The translations under genes and the position numbers were made by a program. This document shows, piece by piece, positions 6,607-11,427 of a stretch of DNA of 64,000 nucleotides. Within the stretch, counting starts at the first letter, position 1. Each line of letters opens with the position of its first letter. The stretch is from assembly GCF_009914755.1 (NCBI RefSeq), contig NC_060929.1. One strand, given 5' to 3'. The stretch comes from the human T2T-CHM13v2.0 reference genome, Homo sapiens. The notes below the pieces were generated by a model that worked only from the letters and a program-made list of their open reading frames with translations, searched no databases and was not told where the DNA came from.

Positions 6607-6673
6607 ATGAAGGGCTTCACTGCTTTTGCCATCCTTGGTCTAGCAGTCACTGCTTGGGCTACCTCGCCATATG
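6607..6673 (+). CDS. Exon 1 of double-headed Kazal gene: signal peptide MKGFTAFAILGLAVTAWA|TSPY
   Basis: ACTATGA Kozak (A at -3), basic-hydrophobic-AWA signal peptide pattern, 67 nt, phase 1, followed by G|GCAAGT. Confidence 0.85.
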
Positions 6674-7269
6674 GCAAGTCAGGGTTTCTTTCCAATAGTC
6701 ACGCGTTTATGTTAACTGTAATATATTCAGCCTTCATTAAATTATAAATGTTAATGTCTAAAGAAAATTTAGAAGGCATCTGTTTGAATTGGCCTGATTA
6801 ACAAAAGTGAGTTGAGTCAGATCTTTAGTGTGAGGAAGAGAGACTGAGGAGAGGGATAAAAGGATTGTGGCTGTATGTTCCATTCCTGAGCAGGATCCCT
6901 CAGGTTTATGACTTGCCCTTTCAGAAACAACCTATAAAGCTTTGGGACCATAACCCATGCCATCCTACTCAGAGGATGCCCACAGGAACTCCTGGACATC
7001 TGTGACAGTCCTTTCTCAATAAACAGAGCTTTCCCCACTGGATTTTTTTTTTTTTTAAATCAGAGCCACATGCATGTCTATCTTCATCCTGAGTTTGGAC
7101 TTGCATGAAGAAATGGCCTCTTTTAGGGCTGGGCTGGGCAAGGACTATTGCTGGGAAATGGGTTTTGGTTACCATGAACAATGGGGATTTAGCTTTGCAC
7201 TTCTAACTGTGCAATTTGTTCTTTCTCCAACTGCTCCTCTTCAATTGATTCTTGCTTCGCTCTCTTCTG

Positions 7270-7292
7270 GTGATCAAACAAAAGGGACAAAG
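7270..7292 (+). CDS. Exon 2 (small linker exon GDQTKGTK; alternatively 8-nt micro-exon 7285-7292, GTK)
   Basis: Strong donor AAG|GTGAGT at 7293; branch point TTCTAAC at 7201 and a long pyrimidine tract ending CTTCTG; converts phase 1 to phase 0 as required. Confidence 0.65.
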
Positions 7293-7818
7293 GTGAGTGC
7301 AACCTTCTCTGTGTGGTATTTGTAAAAATGAAGTCATAGTGAATGTGTAAATAGAGCTGTGAAAGTAGCTAAACTGGCTCACAGTGGATTCACGTAACTC
7401 CTCTGGAGGTAAAAACATGTCTGCTCTGCGCCTTCCTGGTGGTATTTCCTTCTCTAAAGCTTGCACAAGGAACCTCTTCTCAAAAGAACCGCAGATAAAG
7501 TAAACTTTTATCTTTGTATAGTATTTTAAATTTTCTGAGCATTTTTCACATTCCTTATTCTTTTAGACTTTCATTAGAATCCTTAAAGGAGAGATTGATA
7601 TTTCCTTGTTAAACAGAAAATTCCCTTATTATTTAGCGCATGTTCTGGTCTGTTTATTTCTGTAGCACAACACCTGGTCCATAGAAGTTCTTCAGATGTG
7701 TTTGTTGAAAAGCTGAAGAGGCTAGTTTTCTTTCCACTTCCTTCCCCTTCAACATCTTCATATAAGAATAGAATTTAATAATGGGAATACAGGGCATTAT
7801 TTTTTGTTCCAACTATAG

Positions 7819-7937
7819 GTGAACTGTTCCAGATACATTAAAGGCTTAAAGACTGCATGCCCAAGAGACTGGAGACCAATATGTGGCACAGATCAGAAAA
7901 CTTACAGTAATGAATGCATGTTTTGCATGCAAAACCA
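7819..7937 (+). CDS. Exon 3: Kazal domain 1, Cys1-Cys5, P1 = Arg
   Basis: ttccaactatag| [39 protein letters not shown](Q); expected phase-2 donor reads CA|GGAAGT. Confidence 0.92.
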
Positions 7938-8197
7938 GGAAGTGTTATACTCAATTTGAAGCCCCAATTCTTCTTTTTTTATGATTATAAAGCCCACACT
8001 GGCCAAAATCTTGGTCTTTTAAAACATGGCTTGACAAATGCCACTTTTTGTGTGCTTCCTCAATACCCCATGCACAATGCTCTGTTAAAGTTGTGAAAAA
8101 GAAAAGCTTAGCTATATGTCTAAAGAAATATACATATATGTGTATATGTGGATTTACATATGTAAATATATATATGTGTATGTTTGTGTACTTGTTG

Positions 8198-8231
8198 GAA
8201 GTAATGGCAAAAACTGCAATTACTTTTGTAC
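8198..8231. mobile_element. MADE1 (mariner-derived) half element within TA-rich simple repeat
   Basis: aagtaatggcaaaaactgcaattacttttgtac matches one arm of the MADE1 palindrome. Confidence 0.65.
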
Positions 8232-8704
8232 ATATATATACATATATAAAATATATTGGTTATTCAACCAAATTCTCATTCACATTATACACTATCTTTT
8301 GGGTATTAGCTGTTACCTATATGCATTTGATACCCACATTGCATTTAAGGAAACAGTCTCAAGCAGGAAATATATATTGGTTACATTTTCATGAATCTCC
8401 TATACTTTTCTTCCTCCACAGGATAATTTTGAGGATAGCTATTTCTATTTAGGCTGTTAGCCATAGACACATAAAACCTTGTGAACTTATATGGAAATAT
8501 ATGACTTTGATCTATCCTTTAGAATTTGTGTTTCCTCTCATGATCGTCTAGAAAAGTTGAGGGAAGAGAATGATAGTACAAATGAATAGTTGGAATTAGC
8601 ATATCCCCACCACTACTAGCACTACAAGTTTAATATTAAGTCTTTACTTTTAACAAGATCTGAGACTTTAGAAGAATGAAACAATGATTATTACCAGCCT
8701 TCCA

Positions 8705-8935
8705 GTAGTATGAATTCAATACTTTATGATTCATGGTTAAAATCATGGGCTTTGGTGTCAAACATTCGGATTAGAATCCAGACTCCACTTTGTAGATTAT
8801 GCAAATACCCAAGTTACTACAAGCTTCAGTGTTCTTATCTCTAAGACAGAAATTATAATAGAATTTAGGATTCACTGTGATAAAGCATGCCAAATCTTAG
8901 CTAAGTAGCCAACACAGAGTGCTTTATAGAAGTAA
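8705..8935 (+). mobile_element. MIR SINE
   Basis: tggttaaaatcatgggctttggtgtcaaac ... gaatccagactccact ... cttcagtgttcttatctctaag. Confidence 0.65.
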
Positions 8936-9522
8936 GCTCCTTTTTTCTTATCTTTTTCTTCCTTCTTTTCTCCTATTTTCTAGTCCTTTTGAAAATTTAA
9001 AGTCAAGTGTCACAGCAAGTGTTATCCAGAATAAGGTCTCTCAGTATATGTTAGCTCACACACTAATGCAACCAGAAGAGATTAAAATTATATTATCTCA
9101 TATCCTGTTTTTAGAGAGCAGAAATCTAATATTTAGAAAGAAGTGACTATACCAAAATTGTACAGACTTTAAGTGGCAGGGAAAGATTTGGGTGTATTTT
9201 CTTTTTCTTAATTGCAAAGTTAAGAATGTTTTCACACTATATTATGTCTTAGATTCTCACTGAATATTCACAGGATTTTAAAAAATGCTCAATCTACTTT
9301 TAGTGTTGATTTTATGTTTTTATATTCTTACTTGATTCAAAAATGTTCATATATTAAAGATGTTTACTATCAGTATTAACCAACTGGGATAGTTATTCAA
9401 GAAGAGCTTCTCATTCTCAGTCTAGGTCAGACAACAAAGAAATAACATATGACTATTTTACTCTATAGACTATGAAATCTCAAATTATCACATTATGCAT
9501 TCAATAAAATCTTCTCTTCCAG

Positions 9523-9565
9523 AGATCAAGAATTTCAACTCAGAAAACTTCATGAAGGTAAATGT
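9523..9565 (+). CDS. Exon 4: C-terminal part of Kazal domain 1 (Q)DQEFQLRKLHEGKC
   Basis: cttctcttccag| a gat caa gaa ttt caa ctc aga aaa ctt cat gaa ggt aaa tgt |gtaagt; both splice sites canonical, phase 2 to phase 0. Confidence 0.92.
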
Positions 9566-10816
9566 GTAAGTATATGCAGAAATTTTATTAATTCTTAATT
9601 CTTAATTCTTGATGTAAAATATGCCTCATTTTCGTAGAAAACAACCATTTAAAAATACATATTCTAAAAATTACCTATGACTATTTATATTCATAGATAA
9701 GGCATCTGGCCAACCTAAGCAGATCTGAAATATAGCAGAGGAAGAGTTCACAAACCTTATTTATAGCCCTTAATTGGAATATGTTGCTATCCATATAGTT
9801 ATTTTCTAACATTGCAATTAACTAGAAGGTTAAGGTGAGGATTTCAAGGAAAATTAGGAACTTAAGACGCTTTTATAACAATAAAAAAGTTATAAATAAA
9901 GTATGAAAAAATTTAAAAACAAGCGTAGACACAATTAATTCAGGGGTAAAAAGCTAGGTGGGTGGAGTGTCAATAATTCTAATAGAGTTTAAAATGTGAT
10001 ATAAGATAATTATAAACATGGGGTTGTGACAATAAAGACAGTTCATTTTTAGGACGGGCACCTAACCAAATTTGATGGGTGAGAAAGAGAAGTATCATCG
10101 TGAAACTGTTCTATAAGTAGTTAAAATGACATTTAAAGAAGGAGTGGGAATTGTCCTGATAGATACAGTTGGTAAAAGTTAGGCAAGATAGGAAAACAGC
10201 AAGAGCAAAAGCACAAACATATCCAGGGGCAGGAAATACTTGGGAACTCAGTCCTGAGGTTTAATTAGAGTAAGATGCAGAAGACATTGCAGACAAACCT
10301 GAAGAGATAAGCATGAGTCAGGAGAGGATTATCTCCTAATGGAGAATCAGTTAAGTATTTGAAGAGCAATATCTATTTTGCTTTTTAAAAGATCAGTCTG
10401 GCATCAGTGTGGAGAGTGATTGAAACCTCAGATAAGCATAGAGAATGGGCAGAGAATTAGCAGAAAACTGGGGTCGTTTGAACAGGACATATTGAGGGCT
10501 TGAATAAAGTGGATGACAGTATGATGAGGAGAGGACTGACTCAGAAATGAAGTACCAGATAGAATCCACAAGGTGTATTCATCACTTAGATATAGGGAAT
10601 TAGTGAGAGGGAGGGCCTAAACTGGACTGAGCTGTCCCTAGCTGTGACAAGACTCCCAGCCTTGTTGAGACAGAGTATGTAAAGTGCAGCAGCTATATTT
10701 TTTGCATATGGAATTTTGGAATGAATGATCTTTTAAGATATTTTAAAAGTTTGTTTTCTATGATTTAATTATTTGAAAGATAAAACATGTTTGTTTGTTT
10801 GTTTCTGATGGAGCAG

Positions 10817-10923
10817 ATTCAGTGTACCAGGTATTCTGAGGCATGTACCATGGACTACACACTTCACTGTGGATCTGATGGAAATGTATATTCCAACAGA
10901 TGTACCTTTTGCAATACCGTTGT
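10817..10923 (+). CDS. Exon 5: Kazal domain 2, Cys1-Cys5, P1 = Met
   Basis: gagcag| IQCTRYSEACTMDYTLHCGSDGNVYSNRCTFCNTV(V) |gtaagt; CGSDG-x-x-Y-S-N-x-C-x-F-C signature; in-frame tandem acceptor GAG-CAG (10814 or 10817). Confidence 0.95.
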
Positions 10924-11381
10924 GTAAGTGCTGAATTTAATGTATTATTTGCAGAACTAGCCTCTCTCAGAAATAGCCGGAAACAATCTTAGTACCTAAC
11001 AGGCTAGATGTTACTATGAAGCATAAGACTATGATTATTATCATAATATTTTACCAAAAAAAAGAAAAGAAAAGAAGAAAAGAGAGAGGAAAAGAGGAAG
11101 AAAATACATAAGGAAAAAATTGATGCTAAGAAAATAAAAAATTTGATCAATATCGCTAAGTGGCTGCTAAGAGAAAAATTTACAGACTCTTTGGTTTCTG
11201 ACTCTGGCTCTTATTACCATGAAACGTCTCTTTTCTACCATGTTAAAGCTTATTGATTAATTACTCAGTTTTTTAATGCCATGTACTCATCTAGCTGGCT
11301 TAATCTAAAAATATGAAACTTCTCATTTAATATTTCCAAAGCCATCCTTTTAAAAAATAATAATAATAACTTTTCTTGTAG

Positions 11382-11427
11382 GAAGAGCCAAGGTGCAATT
11401 TGGTTGAAAAATTATGGATTGTGCTGA
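11382..11427 (+). CDS. Exon 6: C-terminal part of Kazal domain 2 (V)KSQGAIWLKNYGLC*
   Basis: ttttcttgtag|g aag agc caa ggt gca att tgg ttg aaa aat tat gga ttg tgc tga; 46 coding nt, same size and phase as the last SPINK14 exon. Confidence 0.93.

What the first reader, a model, noticed from the sequence alone, without database searches (positions are those of the whole stretch)
6607..11427. Hidden six-exon double-headed Kazal inhibitor gene: likely primate ortholog of carnivore salivary bikazin
Seen: six exons with compatible phases give a stop-free 134-aa ORF with a signal peptide and two complete Kazal domains (12/12 Cys). The ORF track misses it because the exons are tiny. Known: Kazal P1 is the second residue after Cys2, giving Arg in domain 1 (CPRD, trypsin-type) and Met in domain 2 (CTMD, chymotrypsin/elastase/subtilisin-type). 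This is the pairing of the double-headed submandibular-gland inhibitors (bikazins) of dog and other carnivores. From memory the dog protein contains [24 protein letters not shown] and [50 protein letters not shown], which align closely with the peptides here. I know of no named human two-domain SPINK; the others are single-domain apart from multi-domain SPINK5. Inference: this is the human ortholog, upstream of SPINK14, either unannotated or annotated only as an anonymous pseudogene.
Basis: partly seen in the sequence, partly recalled or inferred. Interest (0 to 1): 0.92.

Follow-up and report, generated by a model that had tools for sequence, protein, structure and literature searches.

The report
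Human bikazin gene copy, splice-damaged
Between SPINK5 and SPINK14 lies the human copy of the two-headed salivary protease-inhibitor gene of dogs and most other mammals; its coding exons are intact, but a key splice signal is broken, and the protein is already on record.

Summary
Window 6607-11427 (+) holds a signal-peptide exon, a tiny second exon and two Kazal exon pairs. It has 12 of 12 Cys, P1 Arg in domain 1 and P1 Met in domain 2.

[quoted passage not shown] Dog bikazin's two best hits in the human genome are these two exons. Relatives so named run from platypus to chimpanzee.

It is not new. An nr record, [quoted passage not shown] (135 aa), is reproduced letter for letter from this locus.

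It is not a clean gene. No exon-2 start used in other mammals has an AG acceptor. The exon-3 donor reads GG where 9 of 9 other human Kazal exons and this locus's own exon 5 read GT. The only in-frame rescue is a weak donor 6 nt downstream, which adds two residues and gives a C5-C6 spacing seen in none of the 35 other two-domain relatives. RefSeq lists no gene here.

Most likely it is a young, splice-disabled relic; an expressed gene is not excluded.

The parts
6516..6523 (+). TATA-like stretch about 85 nt upstream of the ATG (possible core promoter)
   Evidence: Read directly from the sequence. My strict TATA pattern did not match it. This is inference only.
6607..6673 (+). Exon 1: ATG, signal peptide (22 codons plus 1 nt), GC-type donor ATG|GCAAGT
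   Evidence: 7 of 9 consensus positions. The signal peptide aligns with those of the relatives. The protein-length record P0051 starts just after the aligned ...AWA.
6674..6717 (+). In-frame read-through of exon 1 to an alternative donor ACT|GTAATA, as used by the chimpanzee RefSeq model
   Evidence: model F is in frame. P0001 carries the read-through peptide. The donor matches 5 of 9 consensus positions.
7270..7292 (+). Exon 2 region. Long form 7270-7292 (preceded by TG), short form 7279-7292 (preceded by AA), 8-nt form 7285-7292 (preceded by AG). All share the perfect donor AAG|GTGAGT.
   Evidence: The long form matches mustelid and ruminant N-termini; the short form matches dog, lemur and bat N-termini.
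7819..7937 (+). Exon 3: Kazal domain 1, C1-C5, reactive site C-P-R-D-W (P1 Arg), ending at the family's donor position
   Evidence: Pfam Kazal_1 E = 2.2e-16. Best Kazal_1 hit in the genome. Alignment to quail ovomucoid domain 3.
7938..7939 (+). Mutated donor: GG where the family has GT (CA|GGAAGT). The +2 base is window 7939, T2T chr5:148,683,939.
   Evidence: GT lies at offset 11 after the C5 codon in 9 of 9 other human Kazal exons and in window exon 5.
7938..7943 (+). Six extra bases (Glu, then the first two bases of a Val codon that exon 4 completes) read if the cryptic donor AGT|GTTATA is used
   Evidence: models A-D. The donor matches 4 of 9 consensus positions. It gives a C5-C6 spacing of 19, against 17 in 34 and 18 in 1 of the other 35 sequences.
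9523..9565 (+). Exon 4: end of Kazal domain 1 (C6). Acceptor ttccag, donor GTAAGT.
10817..10923 (+). Exon 5: Kazal domain 2, C1-C5, reactive site C-T-M-D-Y (P1 Met). Acceptor gagcag, donor GTAAGT at the family position.
   Evidence: Pfam Kazal_1 E = 2.4e-10. Alignment to OMSVP3, PDB 1iy5.. Inside the bikazin domain-2 clade.
11382..11427 (+). Exon 6: end of Kazal domain 2 (C6) and the TGA stop
11980..12006 (+). Nearest poly(A)-like hexamers (ATTAAA at 11980 and 12001), about 550 nt after the stop
   Evidence: pattern scan. Inference only.

Best explanation
This is the human ortholog of the mammalian double-headed Kazal inhibitor gene (bikazin, UniProt mnemonic IPSG), sitting between SPINK5 and SPINK14. 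In other mammals the gene encodes a small secreted protein. Its first Kazal domain (P1 Arg or Lys) blocks trypsin-like proteases. Its second (P1 Met or Leu) blocks chymotrypsin-, elastase- or subtilisin-like proteases, each by the standard substrate-like canonical-loop mechanism. In humans all coding exons are still open, with every cysteine and both reactive sites in place, but the splicing signals are damaged. The exon-3 donor has G instead of T at +2, at the position that every other human Kazal exon examined uses. Exon 2 has lost both AG acceptors used in other mammals. I infer that the locus no longer makes the ancestral mRNA efficiently and is a young, splice-disabled relic (a unitary pseudogene in the making). 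The donor lesion probably arose after the split from chimpanzee. Shown: the exon anatomy, the domain identity, the orthology, the non-canonical sites, and identity to the nr record. Inferred: loss of expression or function, the timing of the lesion, and the protease targets.
For: Domains: Kazal_1 scores E = 2.2e-16 and 2.4e-10. The best solved relatives are ovomucoid third domains.

Orthology: reciprocal best hits with dog P0033. Named relatives run from platypus, marsupials, armadillo, elephant, bats, shrews, ungulates, carnivores, tree shrew and lemurs to apes (539 proteins at E <= 1e-8 among 2460 candidates, best 120 listed). Exon 5 sits in the domain-2 clade, support 84/94.

Reactive sites: P1 in domain 1 is R or K in 36 of 36 two-domain sequences. 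P1 in domain 2 is M in 29, L in 5 and K in 2.

Donor lesion: GT lies at offset 11 after C5 in 9 of 9 other human Kazal exons and in exon 5, but this exon 3 has GG within CA|GGAAGT. The chimpanzee and baboon models read straight across the family junction, without the two extra residues. The rescue donor matches 4 of 9 consensus positions. It yields a C5-C6 spacing of 19, against 17 in 34 and 18 in 1 of the other 35 sequences.

Exon 2: the long and short forms are preceded by TG and AA.

Annotation: the hub's RefSeq table has no gene, not even a predicted one, at 6607-11427, while chimpanzee and orangutan have predicted models.

Timing: an intact ORF is expected for a recent loss, P about 0.63 for the human branch.
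Against: The ORF, all 12 Cys, both P1 residues and the conserved Tyr and Asn are intact.

Several joins using only AG acceptors and GT or GC donors stay in frame. These are the 8-nt exon 2, exon-1 read-through, the cryptic exon-3 donor, and an orangutan-type single-domain form. Some protein could therefore still be made.

Under strict neutrality along the whole human-baboon path, keeping the frame and 12 Cys has a probability of only about 0.008. This figure uses an assumed divergence and an assumed indel rate. It means the gene was probably under constraint for much of catarrhine history.

The nr record P0002 might derive from a real transcript. I could not see its source.

No expression data, no human variation data and no ape DNA could be consulted, so the claims that the lesion is fixed in humans and specific to humans are both inferences from protein models.

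The replacement rate does not tell the two readings apart. It is near the neutral expectation in catarrhines, but it is about as fast between carnivores whose protein is secreted. A published family-wide omega is 0.66 (passage).
Confidence: 0.6

Rival explanations
1. It is a working, merely unannotated human gene, an eleventh SPINK. It would be transcribed in a narrow tissue or state and spliced through the GC donor of exon 1, an 8-nt exon 2 or exon-1 read-through, and the cryptic exon-3 donor. The product would be a secreted double-headed inhibitor.
For: The ORF and all 12 Cys are intact, and several AG-acceptor, GT/GC-donor joins are in frame. Constraint is inferred over catarrhine history. 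An nr human protein record equals one such reading. The family is highly expressed in salivary glands of other mammals (shrew, dog; passages only).
Against: The donor at the family position is GG. The rescue donor matches 4 of 9 consensus positions and gives a domain-1 spacing seen in none of the 35 other two-domain relatives. The structure implied by the nr record needs AA and TG acceptors, which suggests a conceptual translation. RefSeq lists no model here (hub table). Two SPINK reviews do not list it.
Confidence: 0.27
2. The locus survives as a single-headed inhibitor. Exon 1 is spliced from the CAA|GTCAGG donor directly to exon 4, skipping exons 2 and 3, as in the orangutan RefSeq model. 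Only Kazal domain 2 (P1 Met) is made.
For: The join 6607-6677 / 9523-9565 / 10817-10923 / 11382-11427 is in frame (88 aa) and uses only GT-AG sites. The orangutan model P0009 has exactly this architecture.
Against: The product would carry a seventh, unpaired Cys from the domain-1 tail (translation). The donor matches 6 of 9 consensus positions. There is no transcript evidence, and RefSeq has no human model (hub table).
Confidence: 0.08
3. The exons are not a bikazin ortholog. They would be stray SPINK5 domains, a duplicate of another named human SPINK, or a chance match.
For: The locus lies 9.5 kb downstream of SPINK5 (hub table). Domain 1 is not resolved as a clade in a 35-column tree.
Against: The best protein hits are all double-headed submandibular inhibitors at 48-95% identity, none a named human SPINK. 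Dog bikazin's best two hits in the human genome are these exons, by four orders of magnitude. Domain 2 groups with bikazin domain 2. The Kazal E-values are 1e-10 to 1e-16.
Confidence: 0.02

Closest known systems
nr record 'double-headed serine protease inhibitor Kazal-type protein [Homo sapiens]' (P0002, 135 aa)
   Same: It is identical, letter for letter, to the join 6607-6673 / 7279-7292 / 7819-7943 / 9523-9565 / 10811-10923 / 11382-11427 of this window.
   Different: Its implied exon 2 and exon 5 acceptors are AA and TG, not AG, so it is probably a homology-guided conceptual translation. Its accession and source were not visible. It is listed from nr only, not from UniRef or from a genome annotation.
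[quoted passage not shown]
   Same: Signal peptide, two tandem Kazal domains, P1 Arg and Met, and 56% identity over 100% of P0002. Reciprocal best exon hits. Same Cys spacings except C1-C2 of domain 1, and C5-C6 of domain 1 in the nr reading.
   Different: The dog protein is found in saliva (passages). The human locus has no annotated transcript, a GG at the exon-3 donor and no AG before the dog-type short exon 2. Catarrhine domain 1 has a C1-C2 spacing of 10 rather than 11.
[quoted passage not shown]
   Same: 3 differences in 126 comparable residues. Same exon-1 peptide, same domains and same P1 residues.
   Different: The chimpanzee model crosses the exon 3/4 junction at the family position, without the two extra residues. 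It reads through exon 1 instead of using exon 2. Human differs in domain 2: Leu for Pro at P4', and Thr for Ala three residues after C5.
Avian ovomucoid third domains (PDB 1ovo, 1iy5, 1cho and others)
   Same: They are the closest solved structures to both exons (E = 3.5e-11 and 1.6e-8). They share the Kazal cysteine pattern, and the reactive loops align residue for residue, with P1 Lys against Arg and Met against Met.
   Different: They come from three-domain egg-white proteins of birds and are not orthologous. That P1 is residue 18 in those structures is recalled, not tested here.
Single-domain human SPINKs of 5q32 (SPINK1, 6, 7, 9, 13) and typical SPINK5 domains 2 and 15
   Same: They share the exon design: C1-C5 in one exon, a phase-2 donor 11 nt after the C5 codon, and C6 in the next exon.
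   Different: Each has one domain per gene or, for SPINK5, many. They match dog bikazin at least 10,000-fold more weakly. Their donors are intact GT. A +2 donor variant of SPINK1 linked to pancreatitis is a recalled parallel, not checked here.

Membership tests
Kazal-type serine protease inhibitor domain (Pfam PF00050 Kazal_1) | Profile score above the curated cut-off | tested here: met
   Exon 3 scores 60 bits and exon 5 scores 40.7 bits, against a cut-off of 21.
Kazal-type serine protease inhibitor domain (Pfam PF00050 Kazal_1) | Six cysteines per domain with family spacing (C2-C3 7, C3-C4 10, C4-C5 2, C5-C6 17) | tested here: inconclusive
   Domain 2 has 6/7/10/2/17. Domain 1 has 10/7/10/2 and then 17 only if the GG donor position is used; with the cryptic GT donor it is 19.
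Kazal-type serine protease inhibitor domain (Pfam PF00050 Kazal_1) | Canonical reactive loop with P1 two residues after C2, and the conserved Tyr and Asn of the scaffold | tested here: met
   Both loops align to ovomucoid third domains; the Y-x-N-x-C motif is present in both domains.
Kazal-type serine protease inhibitor domain (Pfam PF00050 Kazal_1) | Tight-binding inhibition of a serine protease | not testable with these tools
   This needs recombinant protein and enzyme assays.
Mammalian double-headed submandibular inhibitor (bikazin / IPSG) orthogroup | One small secreted protein with exactly two tandem Kazal domains behind a signal peptide | tested here: met
   Only two Kazal core exons occur in the 64-kb window.
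Mammalian double-headed submandibular inhibitor (bikazin / IPSG) orthogroup | P1 basic in domain 1 and Met or Leu in domain 2 | tested here: met
   Human has Arg and Met. The family has R 31 and K 5 in domain 1, and M 29, L 5 and K 2 in domain 2, in 36 sequences.
Mammalian double-headed submandibular inhibitor (bikazin / IPSG) orthogroup | Reciprocal best match with the carnivore protein | tested here: met
   Window to named relatives. Dog to human genome: the top two hits are these exons.
Mammalian double-headed submandibular inhibitor (bikazin / IPSG) orthogroup | Each domain groups with the corresponding bikazin domain in a tree that includes human SPINK paralogs | tested here: inconclusive
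   Domain 2 does, with support 84/94. Domain 1 is nearest to chimpanzee, baboon, lemur and dog domain 1, but that clade is unresolved in 35 columns.
Mammalian double-headed submandibular inhibitor (bikazin / IPSG) orthogroup | Conserved position between SPINK5 and SPINK14/SPINK6 in other mammals | not testable with these tools
   No mammalian genome other than the window's own is held.
Mammalian double-headed submandibular inhibitor (bikazin / IPSG) orthogroup | Expression in salivary (submandibular) gland | not testable with these tools
   No expression data are held. For shrew and dog it is reported in papers (passages).
Functional human protein-coding gene | Open reading frame without stops or frameshifts | tested here: met
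   Models A-F all have 0 internal stops.
Functional human protein-coding gene | Canonical splice signals at the ancestral exon borders | tested here: not met
   The exon-3 donor is GG. Exon-2 long and short acceptors are TG and AA.
Functional human protein-coding gene | Annotated or observed transcript | not tested
   The hub's RefSeq table shows none. I had no RNA data and could not see the source of the nr record.

The most novel reading that the evidence does not exclude
A salivary double-headed protease inhibitor kept from monotremes to apes was disabled specifically on the human lineage, after the chimpanzee split. The cause would be a single T-to-G change at +2 of the exon-3 donor (T2T chr5:148,683,939), leaving a fully open but unspliceable gene. 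That would make it a young human-specific unitary pseudogene next to SPINK5 that current gene lists miss.
Probability: 0.35. Interest if true: 0.5.

Novelty: already known. Interest (0 to 1): 0.3.

Why it matters
The 5q32 SPINK cluster controls kallikrein and other protease activity in skin and mucosa; SPINK5 loss causes Netherton syndrome. Reviews count ten human SPINK genes and none with two domains (passages only).

This locus shows that humans still carry the coding exons of the mammalian salivary double-headed inhibitor. It also points to one base that probably decides whether the gene can be spliced.

If the lesion is fixed and human-specific, it is a clean example of recent gene loss in oral or mucosal protease defence. 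If it is polymorphic or leaky, some people may make an extra trypsin- and chymotrypsin-type inhibitor.

For annotation, the locus deserves a pseudogene or gene entry rather than a blank.

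Tried and rejected
1. Replacement rate as a test of decay: uninformative. Human-chimpanzee differences are 3 of 126 and human-baboon 14 of 104, close to a neutral expectation built on assumed divergences (omega about 0.9-1.0). 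Pairs whose protein is secreted are about as fast (dog-fur seal 25%), and a paper reports a family-wide omega of 0.66 with positively selected sites.

2. Relative-rate tests: inconclusive. The human branch is longer than the mouse lemur branch with 7 of 7 outgroups, but significantly so with only 2 of 7. Against loris there is no asymmetry with any of 7 outgroups.

3. Deviation from conserved residues: only 5 human positions depart from residues kept in at least 85% of 22 non-catarrhine sequences. One is an Arg invariant in 22 of 22, which is Gln in human, chimpanzee, colobus and gelada but Arg in baboon and orangutan. This is suggestive, not decisive.

4. Domain tree: 35 columns are too few to resolve domain 1.

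Whether the two-residue insert is tolerated therefore remains open.

7. Literature. 'bikazin' gave 0 papers. 'SPINK5L1' gave 1 paper, a rat array gene. 'double-headed' with 'SPINK' gave 26 papers, 25 listed, none on a human gene by title or abstract start. The one with most SPINK mentions, opened, used 'double-headed' for arrows. 'double-headed protease inhibitor' with 'submandibular gland' gave 13 papers on dog, pig, sheep and others. The exact nr name gave 4 papers, none human. Kazal + submandibular + pseudogene + primates gave 2 papers, neither relevant by title or abstract start. Six phrase variants gave 2 papers, on platypus and a wasp. So I found no paper in the held library that describes the human locus. 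Subscription journals are not covered and no supplements were opened.

8. The idea that exon 2 loss alone killed the gene in the catarrhine ancestor is rejected as unlikely. The frame and 12 Cys survive in human, chimpanzee and baboon (P about 0.008 under neutrality with my assumed rates), and in-frame alternatives exist.

Full report
**What is in the sequence**

On the + strand between 6607 and 11427 I read six coding pieces:
- Exon 1, 6607-6673: starts with ATG and encodes a typical signal peptide. It ends one base into a codon, at a GC-type donor (ATG|GCAAGT).
- Exon 2: lies just before a perfect donor (AAG|GTGAGT, exon end 7292).
- Exon 3, from 7819 (acceptor ctatag): holds C1-C5 of a Kazal domain.
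- Exon 4, 9523-9565 (acceptor ttccag, donor GTAAGT): holds C6 of that domain.
- Exon 5, 10817-10923 (acceptor gagcag, donor GTAAGT): holds C1-C5 of a second Kazal domain.
- Exon 6, 11382-11427 (acceptor ttgtag): holds C6 of the second domain and a TGA stop.

The domain assignment is firm:
- Pfam Kazal_1 scores exon 3 at E = 2.2e-16 (60 bits, cut-off 21) and exon 5 at 2.4e-10 (40.7 bits). The 22-residue exon-1 peptide matches no family, as expected for a signal peptide.
- In a six-frame Kazal_1 search of the window's own genome, exon 3 is the best match of all. That search gave 30 matches at E <= 0.001 among 114 scored candidates; exon 5 scored 8.3e-7.
- A pattern scan of all six frames of the 64-kb window finds these two C1-C5 cores and no other.

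**Reactive sites**

Both exons align best to avian ovomucoid third domains among solved structures (70 sequences at E <= 1; 57). Domain 1 has C-P-R-D-W aligned to the C-P-K-D-Y loop of quail ovomucoid (1ovo). Domain 2 has C-T-M-D-Y aligned to C-T-M-E-Y of silver pheasant OMSVP3 (1iy5).

P1 is the second residue after C2 by established knowledge of Kazal inhibitors (recalled, not tested here).

**What it is related to**

The exon-3 peptide retrieved 6 longer proteins. The two closest were:
- an nr record, [quoted passage not shown] (P0002, 135 aa, 98% identity);

A profile of six of these proteins found 539 proteins at E <= 1e-8 among 2460 candidates (best 120 listed). [quoted passage not shown]
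- platypus and marsupials;
- armadillo, anteater and elephant;
- many bats, shrews, a mole and a hedgehog;
- pig, buffalo, goat, donkey and rhinoceros;
- pangolin;
- dog, sea otter, fur seal, panda, tiger and meerkat;
- tree shrew, lemurs and loris;
- baboon, colobus, gelada, orangutan and chimpanzee.

Avian ovomucoids follow further down the list.

The reverse search is decisive. The dog protein P0033, run against the whole human genome, hits window exon 5 (E = 2.0e-9, 59% identity, dog residues 93-133) and window exon 3 (E = 5.0e-9, 65%, residues 37-77). The next hit scores only 4.5e-5 (6 matches among 40 scored).

I built a tree of 43 C1-C5 cores: the two window exons, both domains of 16 relatives, and nine human SPINK cores taken from the genome. 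Five of the 14 fetched stretches (SPINK8 and four SPINK5 domains) did not fit the cysteine pattern and were left out.
- Exon 5 falls inside a clade made only of bikazin domain 2 (support 84/94).
- Exon 3 is nearest to chimpanzee, baboon, mouse lemur and dog domain 1, but that clade is not resolved with 35 columns.

The P1 pairing is a family trait. In 36 two-domain sequences, domain 1 has R in 31 and K in 5; domain 2 has M in 29, L in 5 and K in 2.

I conclude that this is the human ortholog of carnivore bikazin.

**It is already on record**

The join 6607-6673 / 7279-7292 / 7819-7943 / 9523-9565 / 10811-10923 / 11382-11427 reproduces P0002 letter for letter.

That structure, however, needs an AA acceptor before exon 2 and a TG acceptor before an exon 5 lengthened by 6 nt. 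I therefore think the record is a homology-guided conceptual translation rather than a cloned mRNA. This is an inference: I could not see its accession or source, and it is listed from nr only.

In print I found nothing on the human locus. The searches are listed in the section Tried and rejected. Two reviews list ten human SPINK genes, or SPINK1-14, with no two-domain member besides SPINK5 (passages only). The held library omits most subscription journals, and I opened no supplements.

**Why it is not a clean gene**

*Exon 2.* Other mammals use either of two forms:
- a long form, seen at the mature N-terminus of a mustelid protein (P0051) and in sea otter and buffalo models;
- a short form, seen in dog, lemurs, bats and armadillo.

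In human the long form (7270-7292) is preceded by TG and the short form (7279-7292) by AA. Only an 8-nt version (7285-7292) follows an AG, and its upstream 20 bases are just 10 of 20 pyrimidines.

The baboon model reads through the same stretch with the same residues. This suggests that the loss is old and shared among catarrhines.

*Exon 3 donor.* I examined 9 other human Kazal core exons: SPINK1, 2, 4, 6, 7, 9 and 13, and SPINK5 domains 2 and 15. In 9 of 9, and in this locus's own exon 5, a GT sits exactly 11 nt after the C5 codon (phase 2), within GTAAGT or GTGAGT. In exon 3 that place reads GG within CA|GGAAGT. This looks like a T-to-G change at +2 of an otherwise perfect donor (window 7939, T2T chr5:148,683,939).

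The chimpanzee and baboon models, and all the other relatives, cross this junction without extra residues. I therefore infer that they keep the donor and that the change is on the human lineage. I could not read any ape DNA to confirm this.

The only in-frame GT nearby lies 6 nt downstream (AGT|GTTATA). It matches 4 of 9 consensus positions and adds Glu-Val. The C5-C6 spacing of domain 1 then becomes 19. It is 17 in 34 and 18 in 1 of the other 35 two-domain sequences examined.

With GT or GC donors throughout, the same design gives 136 aa.

*Annotation.* The hub's RefSeq table lists no gene of any type at this place.

**Evidence that points the other way**

- The frame is open in every join tried, 6 of 6 full-length designs. 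All 12 Cys, both P1 residues and the scaffold Tyr and Asn are present.
- Several joins that use only AG acceptors and GT or GC donors remain in frame: the 8-nt exon 2; exon-1 read-through to ACT|GTAATA, as in the chimpanzee model; and an orangutan-type skip from 6677 to exon 4, which would give a single-headed 88-aa protein with one unpaired Cys.
- A neutral simulation puts the chance of keeping the frame and 12 Cys along the whole human-baboon path at about 0.008. It assumes 6.5% divergence, kappa 4, one indel per eight substitutions and 85% of indels frame-shifting. So the gene was probably constrained for much of catarrhine history.
- For the human branch alone the same chance is about 0.63. 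An intact ORF therefore says nothing against a recent loss.

The amino-acid rate does not discriminate. Human-chimpanzee differences are 3 of 126 and human-baboon 14 of 104, near my neutral expectation. But dog-fur seal (25%) and other pairs with a working protein are about as fast. A shrew study reports omega 0.66 with positively selected sites for this family (passage).

Relative-rate tests were mixed. One Arg, invariant in 22 of 22 non-catarrhines, is Gln in human, chimpanzee, colobus and gelada but Arg in baboon and orangutan. Its human codon is CAA. That fits repeated CpG decay, which is a weak hint of relaxation.

The colobus, gelada and orangutan models are truncated or irregular. This may reflect lesions, or only difficulty in annotation.

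**How it most likely works**

In mammals that express it, this is a secreted salivary inhibitor. Domain 1 presents Arg or Lys to trypsin-like enzymes such as kallikreins. Domain 2 presents Met or Leu to chymotrypsin-, elastase- or subtilisin-like enzymes. Both act by the standard mechanism of canonical inhibitors (established knowledge).

Three papers, of which I saw passages only, fit this picture:
- The same assignment is stated for the platypus protein.
- The dog protein is found in saliva and is assumed to protect the oral and oesophageal mucosa.
- It is the most highly expressed transcript of the shrew submaxillary gland.

For the human locus my estimates are:
- about 0.6 that it is a splice-disabled, effectively silent relic;
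- about 0.27 that it is a working gene missed by annotation;
- about 0.08 that only a single-headed form is made;
- about 0.02 that it is not the ortholog at all.

**Novelty and interest**

The structure and the orthology are real, but the human protein is already deposited under the fitting name, so I rate the finding as already known. What I add is:
- the exact mapping of that record to the locus;
- the non-canonical acceptors it implies;
- the GG at the family-invariant donor position.

This is of modest interest to people working on the SPINK cluster or on human gene loss. Variant and RNA-seq look-ups that I could not run would settle it.

Noticed in passing
window 28264-33980 (SPINK14): The SPINK14 span of this assembly has no recognisable C1-C5 Kazal core exon. 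The six-frame cysteine-pattern scan found none. Kazal_1 at E <= 0.001 and Kazal_2 at E <= 10 gave no hit between chr5:148,704,264 and 148,709,980. The coding pieces in the hub's table sum to 165 nt and translate to 54 aa, with only the C6-bearing last exon. Two pieces, of 5 and 3 nt, lie in what looks like the intron after 30702. This may be an assembly or haplotype difference, or a quirk of mapping the mRNA. I did not compare it with GRCh38.
   Followed up: partly
window 10811-10816: The six bases before exon 5 (GAGCAG) are read as Glu-Gln in the nr human record. Pig, buffalo, shrew and carnivore proteins also carry 1-2 (shrews more) extra residues at this inter-domain joint. The exon-5 acceptor therefore seems to slide between lineages. 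In human the upstream position is preceded by TG.
   Followed up: partly
colobus protein P0004 (no locus): The red colobus model has C-P-R-D-Y in domain 2 where other species have C-T-M-D/E-Y. That is the domain-1 type of reactive site, and could reflect gene conversion between the two domains or a change of specificity.
   Followed up: no
G000:C5:148856794-148856850 (+), outside the window: A weak Kazal_2 match (E = 0.31, 23 bits, 28-aa open frame) lies between the matches I take to be the SPINK7 and SPINK9 core exons. It could be another relic exon in the cluster.
   Followed up: no
window 8120-8260 and 11040-11110: Two low-complexity tracts lie in the introns: a TA/TG-rich microsatellite-like stretch in intron 3 and a purine-rich (A/G) run in intron 5. 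Neither overlaps an exon.
   Followed up: no
window 5687-5981: The RefSeq 'silencer' element in the hub's table lies about 630-920 nt upstream of the ATG of this locus. I did not examine whether it bears on the locus's silence.
   Followed up: no
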